Origin: Verrucomicrobiota bacterium
GTDB lineage: Bacteria > Verrucomicrobiota > Verrucomicrobiia > Limisphaerales > CAIQOK01
Reading direction: 5' to 3'
DNA: 36,705 bases
Assembly: GCA_043781315.1 (NCBI GenBank)
Contig: JAYWBR010000248.1
Span: forward strand, 1-36,705
The stretch's first letter is position 1; each line of letters begins with the position of its first letter. Both the position numbers and the translations under genes were made by a program. This document shows, piece by piece, positions 20,895 through 36,705 of this stretch. The notes beneath the pieces were generated by a model that was not told the DNA's origin, searched no databases, and was given only the letters and a program-made list of their open reading frames with translations.

Positions 20895-21602
20895 ATGAAC
20901 AATAAGTGCGTCAGAAAAATTGGATGCCTATGCATCGCGTTCATAATCGGACTGCACGAGTCGGCAGTTTTGGCCGATACATTGGCGTTCACGAGTGGTG
21001 GCTACACGACCAATCAACCAGTAAACTTTACCGGCACCCGAGGCTGGGATTTTTTCAATAGTAGTCCGTACGGTTCCAGCAACTACATGGCCGTTACCCA
21101 ACTAGGCGTCTTTGACCAAGGTGGCGATGGTCTGGCTAATTCCCACGAGATCGGAATCTGGGCCGCTAATGGAACCTTGCTGGCGTCCACGACGATTCCC
21201 GCCGGCACGGTGGCTCCGCTGGTGGATGGTTACCGCTATATGCCGATTACCCCCGTGTTGCTCCCGCCCAGTGCCTTCCCATCACCGCACCCTTTCATAG
21301 TGGCTGTGGCCGCCGCCTACTTAGCGGGTGATGCGGATGACCTCGTCACACCACAATACGGCGGATTATCGGATCTGGTATTTCTATCAAGCTATGATGG
21401 AAGTAACTCACATGGCTTTATCGGCGGCGGCCCAGGTCTGCCCTTCCCTGGCGGCCATTTTGTGGCACCGGAAGGCAGTGGCAGCCCCGCATTGCTGGAA
21501 GTGAACTTCCAATTCAACATCGTCCAAGTGCCCGAGCCTTCCGTGTCTCTCCTGCTTGCGCCCGGCTTGCTAGCACTGTATTTGCACCGGCGGCAGCGCT
21601 AG
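20895..21602 (+). CDS. PEP-CTERM sorting-domain protein
   Basis: ATG at 20895 is preceded by GGAAAGAGGA. The signal peptide is MNNKCVRKIGCLCIAFIIGLHESAVLA. The C-terminus VPEPSVSLLLAPGLLALYLHRRQR has the PEP motif, a TM helix and a basic tail. GC is visibly lower than in neighbouring genes. Confidence 0.8.
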   Translation: MNNKCVRKIGCLCIAFIIGLHESAVLADTLAFTSGGYTTNQPVNFTGTRGWDFFNSSPYGSSNYMAVTQLGVFDQGGDGLANSHEIGIWAANGTLLASTTIPAGTVAPLVDGYRYMPITPVLLPPSAFPSPHPFIVAVAAAYLAGDADDLVTPQYGGLSDLVFLSSYDGSNSHGFIGGGPGLPFPGGHFVAPEGSGSPALLEVNFQFNIVQVPEPSVSLLLAPGLLALYLHRRQR

Positions 21603-28539: not shown

Positions 28540-29907
28540 ATGCCCCGCTGGGATTCCTGCAACCTACTTCAAGCCGGCCTGAACGGCAGCCGCGTCTGGC
28601 AGTTCAACAAGAACGGCTCATTGAACCGCGAGCACGCCGGCAAGGCGGGTGAACCGCTGCCCGCCGGTCTCATCACCAAGAGCTGGGGCGCGCTCGTTCA
28701 GAAAAAAATGAACGTCGCCTGGCTCCCGCCGGAACACGTCTTCATCCGCGCCGCGCAATTTCCCCCGGCCTCGCCCGCCGAGACGCGCACGATGGTCGAG
28801 TTGCAGTTAGAAAAACTTTCGCCCATTCCCGTCACCCAGGCCGTGTGGAGCATGCACCTCCTGCCCTCGGCGAAACCCGACGGCCTCCAGACCGTCATCC
28901 TCATCGTCGCCGAACGCAGCGCCGTGGAAAAATATCTTGGCCAGCTCGAAGGCCAGGGTTTCATGGCCGACCGGCTTGAACTGCCGATGCTGGATCAATT
29001 GCTCGCCACCAAGGTGGAGGGCGACGGCGCGTGGATCTTTCCCGAAAGCCCGAACTCCGCGCTCGTCGCCTGGTGGTACGGCGGCACGTTGCAAAGCGTT
29101 GGATTGATCGCGGTCGGCACCGCCGAAAACCGCGCGGCCAGCTTGAAAGATCAGCTCGTTCACATGGCCTGGGCCGGGGAACTCGACGGCTGGATCACCT
29201 CGCCGCCGGACTGGCAGCTCGTGGCGGACGCGGCGTCTGCGGGCGAATGGGAATCTCCGTTGCGCGAAGGTCTCGGCACGCCGATAAAAACCATCACGCC
29301 CATTGCTCCCGCCGACCTTGCCGCCCGCACCGCCAAGCGCGTCGCCGAATCCACCGACGATTTGAATCTGCTCCCGCCGGAGTTTGCCAAACGCTACCAG
29401 CAGCAGTTCGTGGATCGCCTGTGGATGCGCGGCCTGGGTGCGGTCCTCGGCCTTTATCTCATCGGCTGCCTGATCTTTTTTGTGGCCGCCGGCGTGTTCG
29501 ATCATCAGACCGCCAAGCAGGAGCAGACCGTGGCGGAACGCTGCTACGACTACACCAATTCCCTCCAGCTCAAGGCGCGCTTCGACGTTCTCAAAGACCG
29601 GCAGGCGTTGCGATTTGCCGCGCTGGACTGCTGGGAAGCCGTCGCCGAAAAAATTCCGTCGGGCGTCACGGTGGATTCCATGAACTTCAACGACGGCAAA
29701 CGCATCCGGCTTGACGGCACCGCGCCGCTCTCTCAGGTGAAAGAAGTGATTGAGTTTAGCGGCAATGTCCGCAAGGCCTCTACGGCTGAAGGTCAGGAGC
29801 TGTTCAACCGAAACGGCGGCGACCCGTTCTCATACAACGCCAACCAAGACAAGGACGCAATCCGATGGAACTTTGGGTTGGAGTTGAAAAAAGGGGAGGT
29901 GGAATGA
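28540..29907 (+). CDS. GspL-like assembly protein: a PilM-type cytoplasmic domain fused to a PilN-type NLLP/TM/periplasmic domain
   Basis: The N-terminal roughly 270 aa have a PilM/GspL-like pattern (VELQLEKLSPIPV..., VILIVAERSAVEKYLGQLEGQGF, LELPMLDQLL) but no obvious DxG phosphate-binding motif. This is followed by DLNLLPPEF (nt 29365-29382), a TM helix (about nt 29425-29496), a coiled coil and an alpha/beta domain. Confidence 0.7.
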   Translation: MPRWDSCNLLQAGLNGSRVWQFNKNGSLNREHAGKAGEPLPAGLITKSWGALVQKKMNVAWLPPEHVFIRAAQFPPASPAETRTMVELQLEKLSPIPVTQAVWSMHLLPSAKPDGLQTVILIVAERSAVEKYLGQLEGQGFMADRLELPMLDQLLATKVEGDGAWIFPESPNSALVAWWYGGTLQSVGLIAVGTAENRAASLKDQLVHMAWAGELDGWITSPPDWQLVADAASAGEWESPLREGLGTPIKTITPIAPADLAARTAKRVAESTDDLNLLPPEFAKRYQQQFVDRLWMRGLGAVLGLYLIGCLIFFVAAGVFDHQTAKQEQTVAERCYDYTNSLQLKARFDVLKDRQALRFAALDCWEAVAEKIPSGVTVDSMNFNDGKRIRLDGTAPLSQVKEVIEFSGNVRKASTAEGQELFNRNGGDPFSYNANQDKDAIRWNFGLELKKGEVE

Positions 29908-30545
29908 ACACTTATCTTTCAAAATTAAATTCCAGCGAGCGCCGCTTCGTCGTCGCCGTGGGCATGGCGTTCTTTCTCGTCATCAATATATTCTGGGTCT
30001 GGCCGCACTTCTCCGATTGGAGCGTCATCCGGGGCCGGCTTGACGCCGCGAACGCCACGTTGGCGACTTTCGATGCAGCGTTTCAAAAGACCAACGACAT
30101 CGCAAAAGAAGTGGAAAAAATGCAGCGCGGCGGCGGCAATGTTCCGCCCGAGGATCAGGCCGTGGCGTTTCAGCAGACGATCCAGGGACAGGCCGCGCAA
30201 AGCGGCGTACGGGTCGGCGGCACCGGCCGGCTCATCACCCGCACCAACCAGTTTTTCATGGAGCAAATCCAGACCATCACCGTGGCCGCCGGGGAAAAAC
30301 AACTCGTGGATTTTCTCTACAACCTCGGCTCCGGCGACTCGCTCGTGCGCGTCCGCGATTTGTCCGTCCGCCCGGATCCGCCGCGCCAGCAGTTGCAGGC
30401 CAACATCACCCTGATCGCCAGCTACCAGAAAAATGTCAAGGTGGCCGCCGCGCCCGCCGCCAAACCGGTGGCTGCACCGGCTCCGCCCAAAGCCGCGCCG
30501 CCCGCCGTGCCGGATACTTCCAAACCCGCTACTCCGAAGAAATAA
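29904..30545 (+). CDS. PilO/GspM-like bitopic inner-membrane protein with a Pro/Ala/Lys-rich C-terminal tail
   Basis: ATG at 29904 overlaps the upstream stop (ATGA) and is preceded by AAGGGGAGGTGG. The architecture is a short N-terminus, a TM helix (FVVAVGMAFFLVINIFWVW), a coiled coil and a ferredoxin-like segment (QLVDFLYNLGSGDSLVRVRDLSVRP...ANITLIASY). The stop overlaps the secretin start (TAATG). Confidence 0.6.
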   Translation: MNTYLSKLNSSERRFVVAVGMAFFLVINIFWVWPHFSDWSVIRGRLDAANATLATFDAAFQKTNDIAKEVEKMQRGGGNVPPEDQAVAFQQTIQGQAAQSGVRVGGTGRLITRTNQFFMEQIQTITVAAGEKQLVDFLYNLGSGDSLVRVRDLSVRPDPPRQQLQANITLIASYQKNVKVAAAPAAKPVAAPAPPKAAPPAVPDTSKPATPKK

Positions 30546-32761
30546 TGAAAAAGTCACTCGCCTTCCTGCTCCTGCTCGTGGCCGTCTCCTGTTCGCAGAC
30601 CCCGACCAAGCGCGCCTCCAAACACCCGGCGGCCACCGCCCCCGACTTTTCCGCGACCAGCGGCCTGAAGGTCATTGCCGGCACCAACGCCAGTTTGGAA
30701 ACGATTCATCCCGACAAGGCCGAAGCCGCCGCGCCCGCGCATGTTGACACTGCGCCGGTTGCAACCAATGCGCCCACCCTGAAGGTTTCAGTCCCCGCAC
30801 CCGCCGTCCCGGCCGTCGCCGAAGAGATGATTCCCGCCGGCACGATCAATTTTCCAGCGGCGGATTTGAAAGAGGTCTTGAAAATTTATTCCGAGCTGGT
30901 GAACCGCACCATTTTGCAGCCGGCGAACCTTGGCTCGCCGCAGATCACGTTGAAGACACAGACGCCGCTCACCAAGAAAGAGGCGCTCTCGGCATTTGAA
31001 GCGGTGTTCGCGCTGAACGGCATTTCCCTCGTCAACATTGGCGATAAGTTTGTGAAGGTTGTCCCCGCCGCGCAAGCCCACACCGAAGGCGCAGTCAATG
31101 ACACGCGCACGGCGGCGGAACTCCCCGACCTCGGCCAGTACCTCACGCACGTCGTCCAGTTGAAATACACCAAGCCCAGCGAAATGGTTCCCGCCCTCCA
31201 GCCGTTCGCCAAATTGAATTCCATCCTGCCGATGGACGGCAGCATGATCCTCATCATCCGCGACTACACGGAAAACGTGAAGCGCATGTTGGAAATGATT
31301 GACCAGATTGACGTGAACGTGCCGTCGGAATTCGTCTCCGAAGTCATCCCGATCAAATACGCCAAGGCCAGCGAAATGGCGGATGCGTTGAACAGCCTCG
31401 GCGCCAGCGGTGGCGGTGGCGGCGGCAGCGTGGGTTCACGCGGCAGCAGCACGCGCGGGGCGACTCGCTCCACCACCACCGGTGCCTTCAACCGCACCGG
31501 GGCCAGCGGCGGTTTCGGCGGCGCTTCGCCGTACGGCGGCCAGGGCGGCCTCGGCGGCCAACCCGGCGGGATCGGCGGCCAGCCCGGTGGCCAGCCCACC
31601 AGTTTCACCGACCGTTTGTCCAAGCTGATCAGCAAGGCGTCCTCCTCCGGCGACCTCCAGCTTTTCGGCCAGATGAAAATGATCGCCGACGAGCGCTCCA
31701 ACTCGCTGCTCATCTTCGCCACGCGCCCGGACATGGAAATGATCAAGAGCGTCATCGCCAAGCTGGACGTGGTGCTGGCGCAGGTGCTGATCGAGACGGT
31801 GATCCTGGACGTGCAGATCGGCAACGGCTGGAATTACGGCATCAGCGCCGGCCAAAATCCCCGGAACTTCACGCAAGGCTCCAACATCGTCGGCACCATT
31901 GGCGGCACGGCCAATTCTTCCGGCGGCAGCCTGGACACGCTGGCCAAATTTTTTGGCAACACGTTCGTCTCGAATTCCTCCACCGCTTTCCCGGCGGCGG
32001 GCGGGCTTAATTACTTTGGCCGTTACACCGGCAACATTGACGTGGCCGTGCAGGCCGCCATCTCCTCTGGTCGCGCGAACGTCGTGCAGCGTCCGCAAAT
32101 CCTCACCACACACGCCACCGCCGGCTCCATTTTCATCGGCAGCACGATCCCGTACGTCACCAGCAGTTACGGCGGCGGCGCTTACGGTTCGGGAAATTCC
32201 TACCAGCAGTTGCAGGTCGGCATCGGCTTGAACGTGACGCCGTACATCAATCAGGACGGCCTCGTGGTGATGCAGATTGACGAACAGATCAACGAACTCA
32301 GTGCCAAGTCCACCACCATTGCCGGCGTCGGCGACGTGCCCAACACCGTCAACCGCACGCTGTCAGCGGAAGTGGCCGTGCGCGATGGCGACACCATCAT
32401 CCTCGGCGGCTTCATCCGCAACTCCGACAGCAAGGCCGAATCCGGCGTGCCGATCTTGAAGGACATTCCCCTGCTCGGCGAACTGTTCAAGAGCAAGTCC
32501 GACACGAAGGAACGCAAAGAACTGCTCGTGCTGATGAAACCCACCGTCCTCCGCACCCCGGAACTGGCCGCCCAACACACGGCGGAAATGAAAAACCATC
32601 TGCCCGGCGTCCTGCGCGCCGAGGCCGAATTGAAAGCGGATGAACAGCGGCAACTGGATGAGGATCGCAAAGTGGTGCGCGCCGAACAGCGGAAAGCCGC
32701 CGCGCGCAAAGCGAGATACACGCCGGAAGAAAAGGCCTACGAAGACAGCAAGCCTAAATAG
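30545..32761 (+). CDS. Secretin (GspD/PilQ family), probable lipoprotein
   Basis: A lipobox-like signal is present (LLLLVAVSC). N-domains are visible (INFPAADLKEVLKIYSELVNRTIL, VVQLKYTKPSEMVPAL, VIPIKYAKASEMADAL). The secretin core shows VLIETVILDV, RPQILTTHATAG, VTPYINQDGLVVMQI, GDTIILGGF, SGVPILKDIPLLGELF and ELLVLMKPTVL. Confidence 0.9.
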   Translation: MKKSLAFLLLLVAVSCSQTPTKRASKHPAATAPDFSATSGLKVIAGTNASLETIHPDKAEAAAPAHVDTAPVATNAPTLKVSVPAPAVPAVAEEMIPAGTINFPAADLKEVLKIYSELVNRTILQPANLGSPQITLKTQTPLTKKEALSAFEAVFALNGISLVNIGDKFVKVVPAAQAHTEGAVNDTRTAAELPDLGQYLTHVVQLKYTKPSEMVPALQPFAKLNSILPMDGSMILIIRDYTENVKRMLEMIDQIDVNVPSEFVSEVIPIKYAKASEMADALNSLGASGGGGGGSVGSRGSSTRGATRSTTTGAFNRTGASGGFGGASPYGGQGGLGGQPGGIGGQPGGQPTSFTDRLSKLISKASSSGDLQLFGQMKMIADERSNSLLIFATRPDMEMIKSVIAKLDVVLAQVLIETVILDVQIGNGWNYGISAGQNPRNFTQGSNIVGTIGGTANSSGGSLDTLAKFFGNTFVSNSSTAFPAAGGLNYFGRYTGNIDVAVQAAISSGRANVVQRPQILTTHATAGSIFIGSTIPYVTSSYGGGAYGSGNSYQQLQVGIGLNVTPYINQDGLVVMQIDEQINELSAKSTTIAGVGDVPNTVNRTLSAEVAVRDGDTIILGGFIRNSDSKAESGVPILKDIPLLGELFKSKSDTKERKELLVLMKPTVLRTPELAAQHTAEMKNHLPGVLRAEAELKADEQRQLDEDRKVVRAEQRKAAARKARYTPEEKAYEDSKPK

Positions 32762-33300
32762 CCGTTACTCAACTAGGGGTCTTTGATAGTGGTGGCGATG
32801 GCTTGGTCAACTCCCACGCCATTGGCATTTGGGCGGCTGACGGAACTTTACTCGCATCCACAACGATTCCCGCAGGCACGACGGCTTCGTTGGTGGATGG
32901 CTACCGCTATATGCCGATCACACCGGTATTAATCCCGCCGGGAGCTTTTCCAATTCCTTCGCCTTTCAAAGCGCTCGTGGCCGCCGAGTACGTTGTGGGC
33001 GACACGGATGATCTTGTGACACCAACTGGCGTGTTCGGCAGCGGATATGCAGCGCCAGTGGCAGCAACCAGCTATGATGGTAGCCCATCCCAAGGTTTTT
33101 ATGGCCTTGGAACGGGTTCGCCTTTTCCCAGTCAGCATCTATCCGCACCGGAAGGTGGTTTTACTTTTCCATTTTGGGAAGTGAACTTTCAATTCAACGT
33201 CGTCCAAGTACCCGAGCCTTCCGTGTCCCTCCTGCTTGCGCCCGGCTTGCTTTATCTGTTCCTGCGCCGTCGTCATTTTTTGAGGCGGTTACACGGATGA
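32761..33300 (+). pseudogene. 5'-truncated paralog of the PEP-CTERM gene at 20895-21602; it lacks a start context and a signal peptide
   Basis: Nucleotide and protein homology to 21090-21602 begins at 32761 (AVTQLGVFD...), and the frame is closed by TAA at 32755-32757. The only available start is an internal TTG at 32803. The C-terminus VPEPSVSLLLAPGLLYLFLRRRH is an intact PEP-CTERM motif. Confidence 0.7.
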
Positions 33301-33315
33301 AACTGTACTTCAACT

Positions 33316-34293
33316 TCACCGTTCAATCCGGTGCCGGCAAAACTTCGCGGGCTGTCGCGCGTCCTCGTCCAGCTCGACAGTAAAAAATCCGCCGTCCTTC
33401 CACAGCTCAATGCCCGTCAGCGACGGGCAGAGCCGGACGCAGAACGGTTGCCAGTGTCTGGCTTCACCCAGCGCCGCGCTCATGCGCCGCCCAGCACCGC
33501 CCAGAAATTTTATCGTCGGCATCCCCGCCAGCAGCTTGCTCAGCCGGAAAATGAAATCCGAGTGCAGATGCCCGATGACGGTCTGTTCGATCTGGGAAAA
33601 TTTTTCACGCACCGCCGGTTCGCGCCCCAGCGCGGGCAGCGCCGTCGGGTCGTGACAAAACAAAATGACGCGCTGGGCGGGTTTCAAAGCGGCGAAGGCG
33701 GCGCAGATTTTCGCGAGGTGTTCGGCGCGCAAACTTTTCCAGGCGGCGAGTTCTTCCGGCAGGGTTTCCGGCTCGTACACGGGCAGCGCAAGGAGCGAGG
33801 AAACCACGCCGATCAAAACGTAGCGGCCCAATTCCTCCTGCCAGAACGGTTCGAGGCCCAGTTCATTTTTCGCCCGGTGAAAGCTGGCGAGTCGCATCCC
33901 GCCGCGTCCGCCGATAAGGGCGCGTTTGCCGAGTTCGTGATCGCCGTAGGTCGCGCGGAAGCTCGCACCAAAACGGGCGCGGAGTTTGCCGAGACTTTCC
34001 TGCGCGCTCTGACACGCCGCGTCGTCGCTGACGCCGACGAAGCCGGTGTCACAGGAAAAATCCCCGTTGGCGATCACGCGGTCGGCGGCGGGAACGCGCT
34101 CGAGAAATTGGTCGAGCAGATGGTTGTGATAGAGCTGGCGGTGCAGCCAGAAAAAACGGTGATGAACTTTCAGGAAAATCCGCAGCAGCGGGTTGGTCAC
34201 GCCCGCCAATTCATAATCGTTGCCGCGCGCCTGCTCGGCGGCGGAGGCGTAATGCACATCGCTGAGGATGGCCAGGGTGTGAGCGCGCGGCAT
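33316..34293 (-). CDS. Calcineurin-like metallophosphoesterase
   Basis: The motifs are ILSDVHY (DxH), NGDFSCD (GDxxD), ILFCHDP and IGHLH. The length is 325 aa. Confidence 0.85.
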   Translation of the reverse strand: MPRAHTLAILSDVHYASAAEQARGNDYELAGVTNPLLRIFLKVHHRFFWLHRQLYHNHLLDQFLERVPAADRVIANGDFSCDTGFVGVSDDAACQSAQESLGKLRARFGASFRATYGDHELGKRALIGGRGGMRLASFHRAKNELGLEPFWQEELGRYVLIGVVSSLLALPVYEPETLPEELAAWKSLRAEHLAKICAAFAALKPAQRVILFCHDPTALPALGREPAVREKFSQIEQTVIGHLHSDFIFRLSKLLAGMPTIKFLGGAGRRMSAALGEARHWQPFCVRLCPSLTGIELWKDGGFFTVELDEDARQPAKFCRHRIER

Positions 34294-35617: not shown

Positions 35618-36705
35618 TTAAAAATGGCGGCCTAGGGAAAGCGAGAGGGTGGGGATGAACAACTGGTATTTGCCGTTGGCGGTCTGGCCGGTGAACGGGT
35701 TGGGCTGGTCGTTGCTGATCGTCCGGGCCGGGCCGCTGATCAACTGGCCGGCCAGCGCCCAGTGCCAATGTCTGCCCTGGTGGCCGACCCCCAGGCAGCC
35801 GACATGCAGCGCGGTGTCGGGAATGGCGGGGGTGAAATTCTTTTCCGAGGCGGTTTCGGTGCAGTAAAAATATCCCGCGCTGGCAAACCAGCCGTGTTCA
35901 AAATAACGGGTGATCCCGAATTCATAAAACCAACTGTCGCGCCAGTTGAGCTGCAAGGGCAGATCGAAGCCGAAAATATTTTTGGTGCCGCCCAACGTGA
36001 CCGTTTGCAGGGGCCGCCAGTCGCTCCAGTCCACATCCACTTCCAGATTCCATTTCGGCGTGGGCCGCTAGGAGATGCCGGCGGAAATAATTTGCGGGAA
36101 CGGCGCCCGGGCCACGGTGTACGCTTCCCGCCGGGTTGCACTGGAATCGTAACTGGTGACACCCCGGAATTTCATCGAGGTGGCGCTGCGATAGTTGGCG
36201 CCGAAGGACCATTGGGGATGCGGCTGCCAGAGCAGTCCGGCGTTGAAGCCCGCGTCATAATCGCTGCCTTCAAAATTGAGCGTGTCGCTGGCGGTGGCGA
36301 GGCCGCGCCGCAACTGGAGCTTGGCGTAATTCACGGTCAGCCAACGGCGAGCGAGAGTTGCGGCGTGATTTTCCAGGCGATGACGGGATTGAAGGTCAGG
36401 TATTGCAGGCGGGACTCAATGGCGAGCGAGCGGAAACTGGAATTTTCCGGCCACTCGACACCGAGGCCGAAGGGCGCGTAAAGACCGAGGCCAAAGGAGA
36501 GCGGGAGGTTGGTGGGCGAATAGGTGCAATAGAGTTGCGGGATGGGCAGGACTTCAAATTGGGAACGGGTGATCGCGCCGGCCGGGGCTTCGTAGCGGGT
36601 GTTGATGCCGAGATAATTCAGAACGCCAAGCTGCACATCCACGCCGGGGAGTTGCGTGATGCCGGCGGGGTTGTAGTACAGCGCGGACGGATTGTCGGCC
36701 GTGGC
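35618..36705 (-). pseudogene. FadL/OMPP1/TodX-family outer-membrane transport protein, 5' end beyond the window, disrupted
   Basis: Three consecutive ORFs (36337-36705 open to the window edge, 36068-36334, 35618-36040) read through as one FadL-like barrel: ...NPSALYYNPAGI..., alternating strands, and a terminal ...SLGRHF. There is a frameshift at about 36337-36345 (GCC GTT GGC TGA where ...GGC CTG ACC GTG... would keep the frame) and an in-frame TAG at 36068-36070. Confidence 0.72.

What the first reader, a model, noticed from the sequence alone, without database searches (positions are those of the whole stretch)
32761..33300. Truncated PEP-CTERM paralog whose homology starts at the last base of the secretin stop codon
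From 32761 onward the sequence aligns with 21090-21602, the 3' two-thirds of the PEP-CTERM gene. The alignment is colinear and in the same orientation. By eye it is roughly three-quarters to four-fifths identical, rising above 90 percent over the last 75 nt or so, which encode NFQFN(I/V)VQVPEPSVSLLLAPGL. The copy lacks the first 65 or so codons, including the signal peptide and ribosome-binding region, and its frame is closed by TAA at 32755-32757. The homology boundary therefore coincides with the end of the secretion cluster. That pattern suggests the secretion cluster or a larger block was inserted into, or recombined with, an ancestral PEP-CTERM gene. Alternatively, the fragment is expressed from the internal TTG at 32803 as a signal-less protein.
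Basis: seen in the sequence. Interest (0 to 1): 0.65.

Follow-up and report, generated by a model that had tools for sequence, protein, structure and literature searches.

The report
Truncated PEP-CTERM gene remnant after secretin
Directly after the stop codon of a type II secretion secretin gene in an uncultured Verrucomicrobiota genome lies a roughly 520-base internal piece of a surface-protein (PEP-CTERM) gene that has lost its start, signal peptide and last codons; it is most likely an ordinary young gene remnant left at a chromosome rearrangement junction.

Summary
Window 32761-33251 aligns colinearly with 21090-21571 at 76% nucleotide identity. The copy's frame is closed upstream by TAA at 32755-32757. 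The first base that is clearly PEP-gene-derived is 32761, the G of the secretin's TAG.

All 80 other database homologues listed are 173-280 aa, against 165 aa for this ORF. The 12 read in full each have an N-terminal hydrophobic leader. So this copy is truncated. It is also cut at its 3' end near 33278, and its TGA comes from the neighbouring block.

The junction is 100% identical in five further contigs, from at least three samples and three assembly pipelines. A strain about 2-3% diverged, from another study, carries it too.

In the closest relative (secretin 93% identical) synteny stops exactly at the secretin stop. There a hairpin terminator and a methyltransferase gene follow. The right flank is the end of a second conserved block that has other neighbours in every relative examined. 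No 5' half of the gene lies anywhere in the window.

Between the two strains that carry the junction, pN/pS is 0.51 in the fragment and 0.09 in the secretin.

Verdict: a young pseudogene at a microhomology-type rearrangement junction. The "secretion cluster inserted into a PEP-CTERM gene" model is not supported. Low interest.

The parts
30545..32761 (+). GspD-type secretin, 738 aa, last gene of a GspE / 455-aa / GspM-like / GspD cluster. Its C-terminus is intact; only the third base of its stop codon (TAA in the relative, TAG here) comes from the fragment.
   Evidence: Pfam Secretin 4e-44, Secretin_N and GspD N0. TIGR02517 at 330 bits. 93% identical to the L016 secretin, with the same ..YEDSKPK* end.
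32758..32760 (.). Left junction. A 3-base microhomology (ATA) is shared by the secretin end (AAATAA in L016) and family genes (ACATAG in L005). With one mismatch the shared stretch is 7 bases (CTAAATA against CTACATA).
   Evidence: Register comparisons and the L016 sequence. Synteny with L016 ends at 32760.
32761..33278 (+). Internal piece of a DUF4082-like / PEP-CTERM surface-protein gene. It corresponds to residues 66 to about 231 of the 235-aa window paralog and to the matching part of 216-255-aa relatives. The reading frame is still open.
   Evidence: Alignments. 84.4% ungapped nucleotide identity over 525 bases to the P0004 gene (L006). 80-86% amino-acid identity to P0002-P0004. DUF4082 profile positions 29-134 of 143 matched.
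32803..33300 (+). Mechanical ORF of 165 aa from the first in-frame start-type codon (TTG). It was called as a gene in one short contig only (P0001) and left uncalled in the three long contigs.
   Evidence: The SD-like GGTGG upstream gives -6.0 kcal/mol but is part of the conserved GGDG codons.
33211..33276 (+). Intact PEP-CTERM sorting signal: PEP (33211-33219), hydrophobic helix SVSLLLAPGLLYLFL, and basic cluster RRRH.
   Evidence: Translation. TIGR02595 at 17.8 bits against a cut-off of 16.
33279..33294 (.). Right junction. These 16 bases could be assigned neither to the family gene (homology ends about 33278) nor to the neighbouring block (homology to L097 starts at 33295). The fragment's TGA at 33298-33300 lies in the neighbour's 3' flank.
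33316..34293 (-). Conserved 325-aa metallophosphoesterase-like gene, convergent with the fragment. It is the last gene of a conserved block that includes the adjacent histidine kinase. In three relatives the block extends upstream to DnaK.
   Evidence: 3095 homologues, some named metallophosphoesterase or carrying PF00149. Synteny in L096, L097 and L100, and different 3' neighbours in every relative.
20895..21602 (+). Full-length paralog, 235 aa: leader helix, beta-sandwich domain and PEP-CTERM signal. It serves as the reference for what the fragment lacks.
   Evidence: AlphaFold2 model with pLDDT 88.2 and pTM 0.83: helix at residues 4-20 and strands at 32-38, 47-55, 64-73 and onward.

Best explanation
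The 32761-33278 stretch is a non-functional remnant (young pseudogene) of a gene for a small exported surface protein. That protein had a DUF4082-like beta-sandwich domain and a PEP-CTERM sorting signal.

In this lineage, illegitimate recombination joined two conserved chromosomal blocks that are not adjacent in any sampled relative. On the left is the type II secretion cluster, which ends with the secretin. On the right is a histidine-kinase / metallophosphoesterase block.

The left break falls on a 3-base microhomology (ATA) that overlaps the secretin stop codon. The secretin stays intact and its stop merely changes from TAA to TAG. The gene's promoter, ribosome site, signal peptide and first 65 or so codons are gone, and so is the terminator that follows the secretin in the closest relative. 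A second break removed the last 7 or so codons.

What remains cannot be exported, so it cannot be processed by an exosortase. It probably does nothing beyond being transcribed by read-through from the secretion operon.

- **Shown:** the truncation at both ends, both synteny breaks, the reality of the junction and its presence in two strains, and the relaxed constraint.
- **Inferred:** the order and mechanism of the events (deletion, translocation or captured piece), the absence of function, and the read-through transcription.
For: **1. All other family members are longer.**
- The 80 other database homologues listed are 173-280 aa, against 165 aa for this ORF.
- The 12 read in full have an N-terminal hydrophobic leader and the TGTKGW region that the fragment lacks.

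**2. The frame is closed upstream** by TAA at 32755-32757.

**3. Synteny with the closest relative breaks at the junction.**
- L016 aligns at 90.7% nucleotide identity from window 26000 to exactly 32760.
- L016 then continues with a hairpin terminator and a methyltransferase gene.
- The 74%-identical relative L017 continues differently again.

**4. The right flank is the end of a second conserved block.**
- The HK and metallophosphoesterase genes end a block conserved in L096, L097 and L100. HK next to the metallophosphoesterase gene is also seen in L105-L110.
- Every relative differs beyond the metallophosphoesterase stop.

**5. Family genes are absent where an insertion or inversion model needs them.**
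- There is none within the flanks held (up to 6 kb) of 80 related secretin loci, nor next to the metallophosphoesterase gene in 14 loci.
- There is no N-terminal piece elsewhere in the window.

**6. The secretin's former downstream partner is elsewhere in the same organism.**
- The methyltransferase ortholog sits on contig L104 (89% amino-acid identity, same sample). Its depth tracks the window's across four runs: 8.3/9.0, 17.9/~19, 14.1/14.8 and 8.1/8.7.
- There it abuts another decayed gene, a frameshifted integrase N-terminus.

**7. Family homology also ends at the 3' side**, near 33278.

**8. Selection has relaxed recently.**
- Between the window and a strain about 2-3% diverged that shares the junction, the fragment shows 9 non-synonymous and 6 synonymous changes (pN/pS 0.51).
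- The adjacent secretin shows 5 and 18 (0.09). Synonymous divergence is the same in both (0.053 against 0.051). Fisher p = 0.037.
- Over the long term, the fragment's branch shows dN/dS of about 0.08-0.14. Constraint was therefore lost only recently.

**9. The domain is incomplete.** In the AlphaFold2 model of the full-length paralog (pLDDT 88), the fragment lacks the leader helix and strands 32-38 and 47-55. The TTG ORF also lacks strand 64-73.

**10. PEP-CTERM proteins always carry an N-terminal signal peptide** (PMC3237569).

**11. A second broken gene lies 2.3 kb away.** It is FadL/Toluene_X-like, with a frameshift and an in-frame stop.
Against: - The reading frame is still open over 180 codons in both strains, with no stop or indel.
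- pN/pS of 0.51 rests on 15 substitutions and does not differ significantly from either 1 or about 0.2. The binomial test against neutrality gives p = 0.16.
- The strain comparison is stitched together from short Logan contigs of two runs.
- An SD-like GGTGG precedes TTG 32803, with a duplex energy as good as that of real genes in this window. Translation is therefore possible.
- No transcript or peptide data exist.
- The place from which the gene piece came, and the fate of its 5' part, were not found. The sequence of events is therefore not reconstructed.
Confidence: 0.8

Rival explanations
1. The fragment is a functional, signal-less protein translated from TTG 32803, possibly by re-initiation after the secretin stop 42 bases upstream. 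It would be a cytoplasmic, tail-anchored protein with a partial beta-sandwich and some new role.
For: - The 165-aa frame is open in two diverged strains, and the TTG is kept in both.
- GGTGG lies 8-12 bases upstream with -6.0 kcal/mol.
- The ORF is co-oriented with, and directly behind, an operon, with no terminator in between.
- pN/pS of 0.51 is below 1.
Against: - The product would lack the signal peptide that all PEP-CTERM proteins have (PMC3237569). It would also lack three of eleven strands, including the most conserved one, AVTQLGVFD.
- TTG here is a synonymous variant of the family's CTG Leu codon, and GGTGG is part of the conserved GGDG codons.
- Constraint is relaxed five-fold relative to the neighbouring gene and to the fragment's own past.
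- The gene callers skipped it in three of the four contigs that span the whole ORF.
Confidence: 0.08
2. The fragment is a silent donor cassette. On this view it is a promoterless, 5'-truncated copy of a surface-protein gene, kept as a source of sequence for gene conversion into full-length paralogs. That would resemble pilS or vls-type variation systems.
For: - The family has conserved blocks flanking variable central segments.
- The 45 bases coding VQVPEPSVSLLLAP are unusually conserved at synonymous sites across paralogs: 0.82 third-position identity, against 0.45-0.66 elsewhere. Such a stretch could act as a recombination anchor.
- The ORF has stayed open.
- Relatives carry tandem arrays of 2-5 paralogs.
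Against: - Only one such fragment was seen, and it is not part of an array.
- No conversion tract between it and the window's full-length copy is evident. The high 3' identity is shared family-wide, including across genomes.
- Its position exactly at a synteny break, with both ends cut, is explained more simply by rearrangement.
- No recombination-promoting element or dedicated recombinase lies nearby.
Confidence: 0.04
3. One reading: the secretion cluster, or a larger block containing it, was inserted into an ancestral full-length PEP-CTERM gene and split it.
For: The homology boundary coincides to the base with the end of the cluster.
Against: - No 5' half lies anywhere in the 32.7 kb upstream.
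- The T2SS cluster is colinear with L016 over the 6 kb of upstream flank held. L017 and L090 are colinear as far as they align. There is no family gene at either end.
- The secretin C-terminus is native.
- The fragment's 3' end is also cut.
Confidence: 0.04
4. Assembly artefact: a chimeric join of two contigs.
For: The sequence comes from a metagenome, and the family is multi-copy and repeat-like.
Against: - The junction is 100% identical in five further contigs from at least three samples and three pipelines: MEGAHIT-style k141 contigs, separate scaffold assemblies and Logan contigs.
- A diverged strain from a different study spans the junction.
- The join lies at the edge of the repeat, not inside it.
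Confidence: 0.01

Closest known systems
PEP-CTERM / exosortase substrates (TIGR02595, PF07589; Haft et al. 2006, cited in PMC3237569)
   Same: The C-terminal tripartite signal is complete: VPEP motif, hydrophobic helix and RRRH basic cluster. The full-length paralog in the window and the 12 homologues read in full have the usual leader plus sorting-signal layout.
   Different: The fragment has no signal peptide and no start of its own. It also lost the codons after the basic cluster, so it cannot enter the export and sorting pathway.
DUF4082 (PF13313) beta-sandwich domain proteins
   Same: The fragment matches profile positions 29-134 of 143. Several homologues carry precomputed PF13313 hits.
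   Different: The scores are below Pfam's threshold (19.9 against 28.4 bits). The N-terminal quarter or so of the domain is missing. The fold search found no significant solved relative (best E = 0.011, generic jelly-roll/CBM/C1q-like).
Bacterial gene remnants (pseudogenes) at rearrangement or deletion junctions formed by microhomology-mediated illegitimate recombination
   Same: - It is truncated relative to all homologues.
- It lies exactly at a synteny break.
- There is a 3-base microhomology at the join.
- Constraint is relaxed.
- Another broken gene lies nearby.
   Different: The frame has not yet acquired stops or indels, and both ends are cut. More than one event, or capture of a piece during repair, is therefore needed.
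Silent cassettes for surface-protein variation (Neisseria pilS, Borrelia vls; from general knowledge)
   Same: It is a promoterless, 5'-truncated copy of a surface-protein gene. Conserved flanking blocks surround a variable centre.
   Different: It is a single copy. There is no array, no expression-site relationship and no observed conversion tracts.

Membership tests
PEP-CTERM sorting-domain protein (exosortase substrate) | C-terminal PEP motif, transmembrane helix and basic cluster at the protein's end | tested here: met
   VPEPSVSLLLAPGLLYLFLRRRH at 33208-33276. TIGR02595 scores 17.8 bits against a cut-off of 16. Seven unrelated residues follow the basic cluster.
PEP-CTERM sorting-domain protein (exosortase substrate) | N-terminal signal peptide for export before sorting | tested here: not met
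   The frame is closed by TAA at 32755-32757 and the first start-type codon corresponds to residue 80 of the paralog. The 12 homologues read in full have a leader. The requirement is stated in PMC3237569.
PEP-CTERM sorting-domain protein (exosortase substrate) | Exosortase (EpsH/XrtA family) encoded in the same genome | not tested
   No exosortase hit among the 20 window proteins scanned. The rest of the genome is not available.
DUF4082 (PF13313) | Match to the Pfam profile above the gathering threshold over the whole domain | tested here: inconclusive
   The fragment scores 19.9 bits against 28.4, over profile positions 29-134 of 143. The full-length paralog gave no hit at E <= 0.01. Some homologues carry precomputed PF13313 hits.
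Pseudogene / gene remnant | Truncated relative to all functional homologues, with loss of start and regulatory region | tested here: met
Pseudogene / gene remnant | Relaxed selective constraint after the disabling event | tested here: met
   pN/pS is 0.51 in the fragment and 0.09 in the secretin between the two junction-bearing strains, Fisher p = 0.037. The earlier branch shows omega of about 0.08. The counts are small.
Pseudogene / gene remnant | Disrupted reading frame (stops or frameshifts) within the remnant | tested here: not met
   The frame is open across 32758-33300 in the window and in the diverged strain. This fits a young remnant.
Pseudogene / gene remnant | No transcript or protein product of its own | not testable with these tools
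   No RNA run holds the stretch.
Silent-cassette variation system | Several silent copies plus mosaic expressed alleles that carry cassette-derived tracts | tested here: not met
   The window has one fragment and one full-length copy. No fragment-specific tract was seen in copy A, and the 3' identity is family-wide. Population-level mosaics were not examined.

The most novel reading that the evidence does not exclude
The remnant is kept open because it serves as a silent donor cassette. Gene conversion from it would diversify the full-length DUF4082/PEP-CTERM surface proteins. The 45 bases that code the PEP-CTERM signal, unusually conserved at synonymous sites, would act as the recombination anchor. 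This would be a surface-variation system in free-living Verrucomicrobiota.
Probability: 0.04. Interest if true: 0.6.

Novelty: new member of a known kind. Interest (0 to 1): 0.15.

Why it matters
It matters mainly for annotation. The 165-aa ORF 32803-33300 should be flagged as a gene fragment, not as a PEP-CTERM protein. The secretin should be kept at full length, with a hybrid stop codon.

It is also a clean, base-resolved example of how conserved blocks are re-joined in Verrucomicrobiota chromosomes. The join uses a 3-base microhomology, leaves the upstream gene intact, and removes the terminator that follows the secretin in the closest relative. The small PEP-CTERM surface-protein family appears to turn over quickly: it shows tandem arrays, a 5'-cut copy here, and a copy with a nonsense codon inside the PEP motif in a co-occurring relative. 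None of this changes what is known about secretion or sorting systems.

Tried and rejected
**1. Reciprocal inversion.**
- I located the secretin's former downstream partner, a methyltransferase, in the same organism (L104).
- I searched it for the missing 5' part of the family gene and found none.

**2. An ancestral family gene next to either flank.**
- tblastn of family proteins against 80 secretin loci and 14 metallophosphoesterase loci gave no hits.

**3. Secretin-fragment fusion by frameshifting or read-through.**
- The fragment frame is +2 relative to the secretin.
- A TAA in the fragment frame lies four bases before the secretin stop.
- The secretin frame meets a second stop four codons after its own.
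- There is no slippery heptamer. Rejected by inspection.

**4. Structured RNA or terminator in the fragment.**
- Rfam gave only a sub-threshold snoRNA chance hit.
- No terminator or promoter pattern lies on the + strand.

**5. RNA evidence.** No run is available.

**6. Fold assignment.**
- Foldseek against the PDB gave no match at E <= 0.001.

**7. Strain comparison with L103.**
- The contig is 97.8% identical overall, but all 45 differences lie in one patch of the metallophosphoesterase gene and none in the fragment. It is uninformative here.

**8. Shine-Dalgarno argument against translation.**
- Dropped, because real genes in this window often have weaker SD matches than the TTG site.

**9. 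Search for the missing 5' piece in read sets.**
- I tried to lay reads on the P0004 locus to look for it.

**10. Literature search.**
- A search for PEP-CTERM together with DUF4082 returned nothing.
Full report
**What is in the sequence**

The secretin gene (30545-32761, 738 aa) carries Secretin, Secretin_N and GspD-N0 domains. It ends ...AAG CCT AAA TAG. In the +2 frame, directly after a TAA at 32755-32757, the sequence reads IAVTQLGVFDSGGDGL...NFQFNVVQVPEPSVSLLLAPGLLYLFLRRRHFLRRLHG* up to TGA at 33298-33300.

A local alignment against the full-length 235-aa gene at 20895-21602 gives 372/489 identical bases (76%). It is colinear and runs 21077-21571 against 32746-33251. At protein level this is 69% identity over residues 65-218 of the paralog. 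The resemblance is far beyond chance: BLAST gives E = 4e-71 against the same paralog on other contigs of this organism. The first ATG/GTG/TTG in frame is TTG 32803, which gives a 165-aa ORF.

**What family it belongs to**

- The full-length paralog has a leader helix, a beta-sandwich and a C-terminal PEP-CTERM signal.
- The fragment matches DUF4082 profile positions 29-134 of 143 at a sub-threshold score. It matches TIGR02595 (PEP-CTERM) just above its cut-off.
- A database search with the fragment found 82 proteins, including the ORF itself and one 112-aa partial hit. The 80 others are 173-280 aa.
- The best hits are 81-86% identical, closer than the window's own paralog.
- All twelve homologues I read in full start with a hydrophobic leader, followed by ADTPAF.SGG..TNQPPSFTGTKGWAF....NY, before the AVTQLGVFD block where the fragment begins.
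- An AlphaFold2 model of the window paralog, built on a 63-sequence alignment, has pLDDT 88.2 and pTM 0.83. It shows helix 4-20 and eleven strands.
- The fragment lacks the leader and strands 32-38 and 47-55. The TTG ORF also lacks strand 64-73.
- Foldseek found no significant solved relative.

**The left boundary, to the base**

The closest genome relative is L016, a Verrucomicrobia MAG with a secretin 93% identical. It aligns with the window at 90.7% nucleotide identity from 26000 to exactly 32760, and not beyond.

- Its secretin ends with the same ..YTPEEKAYEDSKPK, coded AAG CCG AAA TAA.
- A GC-rich hairpin with a T-run follows, and then a SAM-methyltransferase gene.
- Family genes read AAC TAC AT(A/G) GC(C/T) GTT ACT at the matching place.

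The window is therefore secretin-type through 32760 and family-type from 32761, with ATA (32758-32760) common to both parents. With one mismatch, the shared stretch extends to CTAAATA against CTACATA. The secretin protein is untouched, and its stop changed from TAA to TAG. This is what microhomology-mediated illegitimate recombination looks like. That mechanism is my inference; the boundary itself is shown.

**The right boundary**

- Ungapped alignments to three family genes from other genomes stay in register up to about 33278 (..CGC CGT CGT CAT TT) and then lose all similarity.
- The convergent 325-aa gene (33316-34293, minus strand) has 3095 homologues. Some are named metallophosphoesterase.
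- With the adjacent histidine kinase it ends a block conserved in three MAGs: DnaK, two response regulators, kinase, methyltransferase, FadL-like gene, kinase, metallophosphoesterase.
- Similarity to L097 runs to window 33295, 20 bases past the stop of that gene.
- Beyond that point every relative differs. The neighbours seen are:
  - a PEP-CTERM protein of another family (L100);
  - an autotransporter-repeat protein (L096);
  - 645 bases with no called gene, then a transglutaminase-core gene (L097);
  - LptD-like genes (L105-L110);
  - a 724-aa gene with no Pfam hit (L111).
- The fragment is therefore an internal piece of about 520 bases between the ends of two conserved blocks. Sixteen bases (33279-33294) remain unassigned, and the stop codon is borrowed from the neighbour's flank.

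**Is it real?**

The 1.1-kb stretch around the junction is 100% identical in three long contigs from three samples, in two Logan contigs and in a 1-kb scaffold. In two runs of another study (freshwater sediment), a strain about 2-3% diverged carries it as well. One 331-base contig spans 32596-32924 with six differences. In runs X1 and X4 only one contig covers 32300-33209 at 85% identity or more. No near-identical intact twin of the fragment is therefore visible in those samples.

**Tests of how it arose**

- *Insertion of the cluster into a gene.* This fails. No N-terminal piece lies anywhere in the window. None of the 80 related secretin loci has a family member within the flanks held, up to 6 kb.
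- *Simple reciprocal inversion.* This predicts the 5' part of the gene fused to the old terminator-methyltransferase module.
  - I found that module in the same organism (L104). It is 89% identical in protein, comes from the same sample, and its depth tracks the window's in four runs.
  - What precedes it is a frameshifted, truncated tyrosine-integrase N-terminus ending TGG CCT AAA TAA, followed by a similar hairpin. It is not a family gene.
- *An ancestral family gene beside the metallophosphoesterase block.* This was not found either.

The history therefore involved more than one event, possibly with a mobile element once sitting behind the secretin. I cannot reconstruct it further.

**Selection**

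- Against its nearest relatives the fragment shows dN/dS of 0.13-0.14. A three-taxon split puts about 0.08 on its own branch. For most of its history it was therefore a constrained gene.
- Between the two strains that share the truncation, the fragment has 9 non-synonymous and 6 synonymous differences (pN/pS 0.51).
- 1.4 kb of the secretin has 5 and 18 (0.09).
- Synonymous divergence is equal in the two, 0.053 against 0.051, and Fisher p = 0.037. The fragment's ratio does not differ significantly from neutrality, p = 0.16.
- This is the pattern of a recently disabled gene. The counts are small, and the second strain is pieced together from short contigs.

**Could it still be made?**

- A GGTGG precedes TTG 32803, with a duplex energy as good as that of real genes here. 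Translation cannot be ruled out.
- That motif is only the conserved GGDG codons, and TTG is a synonymous variant of the family's CTG.
- No promoter or terminator pattern lies on the + strand between the secretin and the fragment's end. Read-through from the secretion operon is likely; this is an inference.
- No RNA data exist.
- A product without a signal peptide cannot reach an exosortase. PEP-CTERM proteins always have a signal peptide (PMC3237569).

**Verdict**

The insertion interpretation is not supported. The best explanation is a young gene remnant at a lineage-specific rearrangement junction (confidence about 0.8). It is an ordinary kind of feature, and the main value of the result is correct annotation.

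Noticed in passing
window 35621-36705 (minus strand; runs off the window end): The FadL/Toluene_X-like outer-membrane gene of the right-hand block is broken. It has a frameshift near 36340 and an in-frame stop at 36068-36070, giving three ORFs. Relatives L097 and L100 have an intact 412-415-aa gene. The same split is called in three independent assemblies.
   Followed up: partly
L006 4543-5300 (also L007-L009): P0004 is the closest full-length relative of the fragment. It has TAG in place of the Glu codon of the PEP motif (..VVQVP*PSVTLLLAPGLL..), in four assemblies. It keeps its leader but loses its sorting signal, so it is either a released variant or another decaying family member.
   Followed up: partly
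window 21534-21578 and 33202-33246; same segment in L001, L005, L006: Nine family genes from four contig sources were compared. Third-codon-position identity is 0.82 in the 45 bases coding (I/V)VQVPEPSVSLLLAP and 0.45-0.66 elsewhere. Other blocks are as conserved, or more so, at the protein level. This suggests either gene conversion or a constraint acting on the nucleotide sequence of the sorting-signal region.
   Followed up: partly
L104 9230-10000: In the same organism, the ortholog of the methyltransferase that follows the secretin in L016 is preceded by a frameshifted, truncated tyrosine-integrase N-terminus. That piece ends TGGCCTAAATAA, which resembles the secretin's AAGCCTAAATAG. A hairpin terminator like the one behind the L016 secretin follows. 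It may be a trace of a mobile element once integrated behind the secretin.
   Followed up: partly
L103 against window 33762-34221: A 2067-base contig from another sample is identical to the window except for 45 differences. All lie within 460 bases inside the metallophosphoesterase gene, and most are synonymous. This looks like a recombination patch from a related strain.
   Followed up: no
L001, L002, L005, L006: In relatives, family members sit in tandem arrays of 2-5 genes. These arrays often lie directly downstream of a 1150-aa Laminin_G_3/DMFA2_C protein. The window's full-length copy instead follows a TPR protein and stands alone.
   Followed up: no
window 28540-29907: A 455-aa gene sits between GspE and the GspM-like gene. 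It has no Pfam or NCBIfam hit, although its position is the one where a GspF/L-type component would be expected.
   Followed up: no
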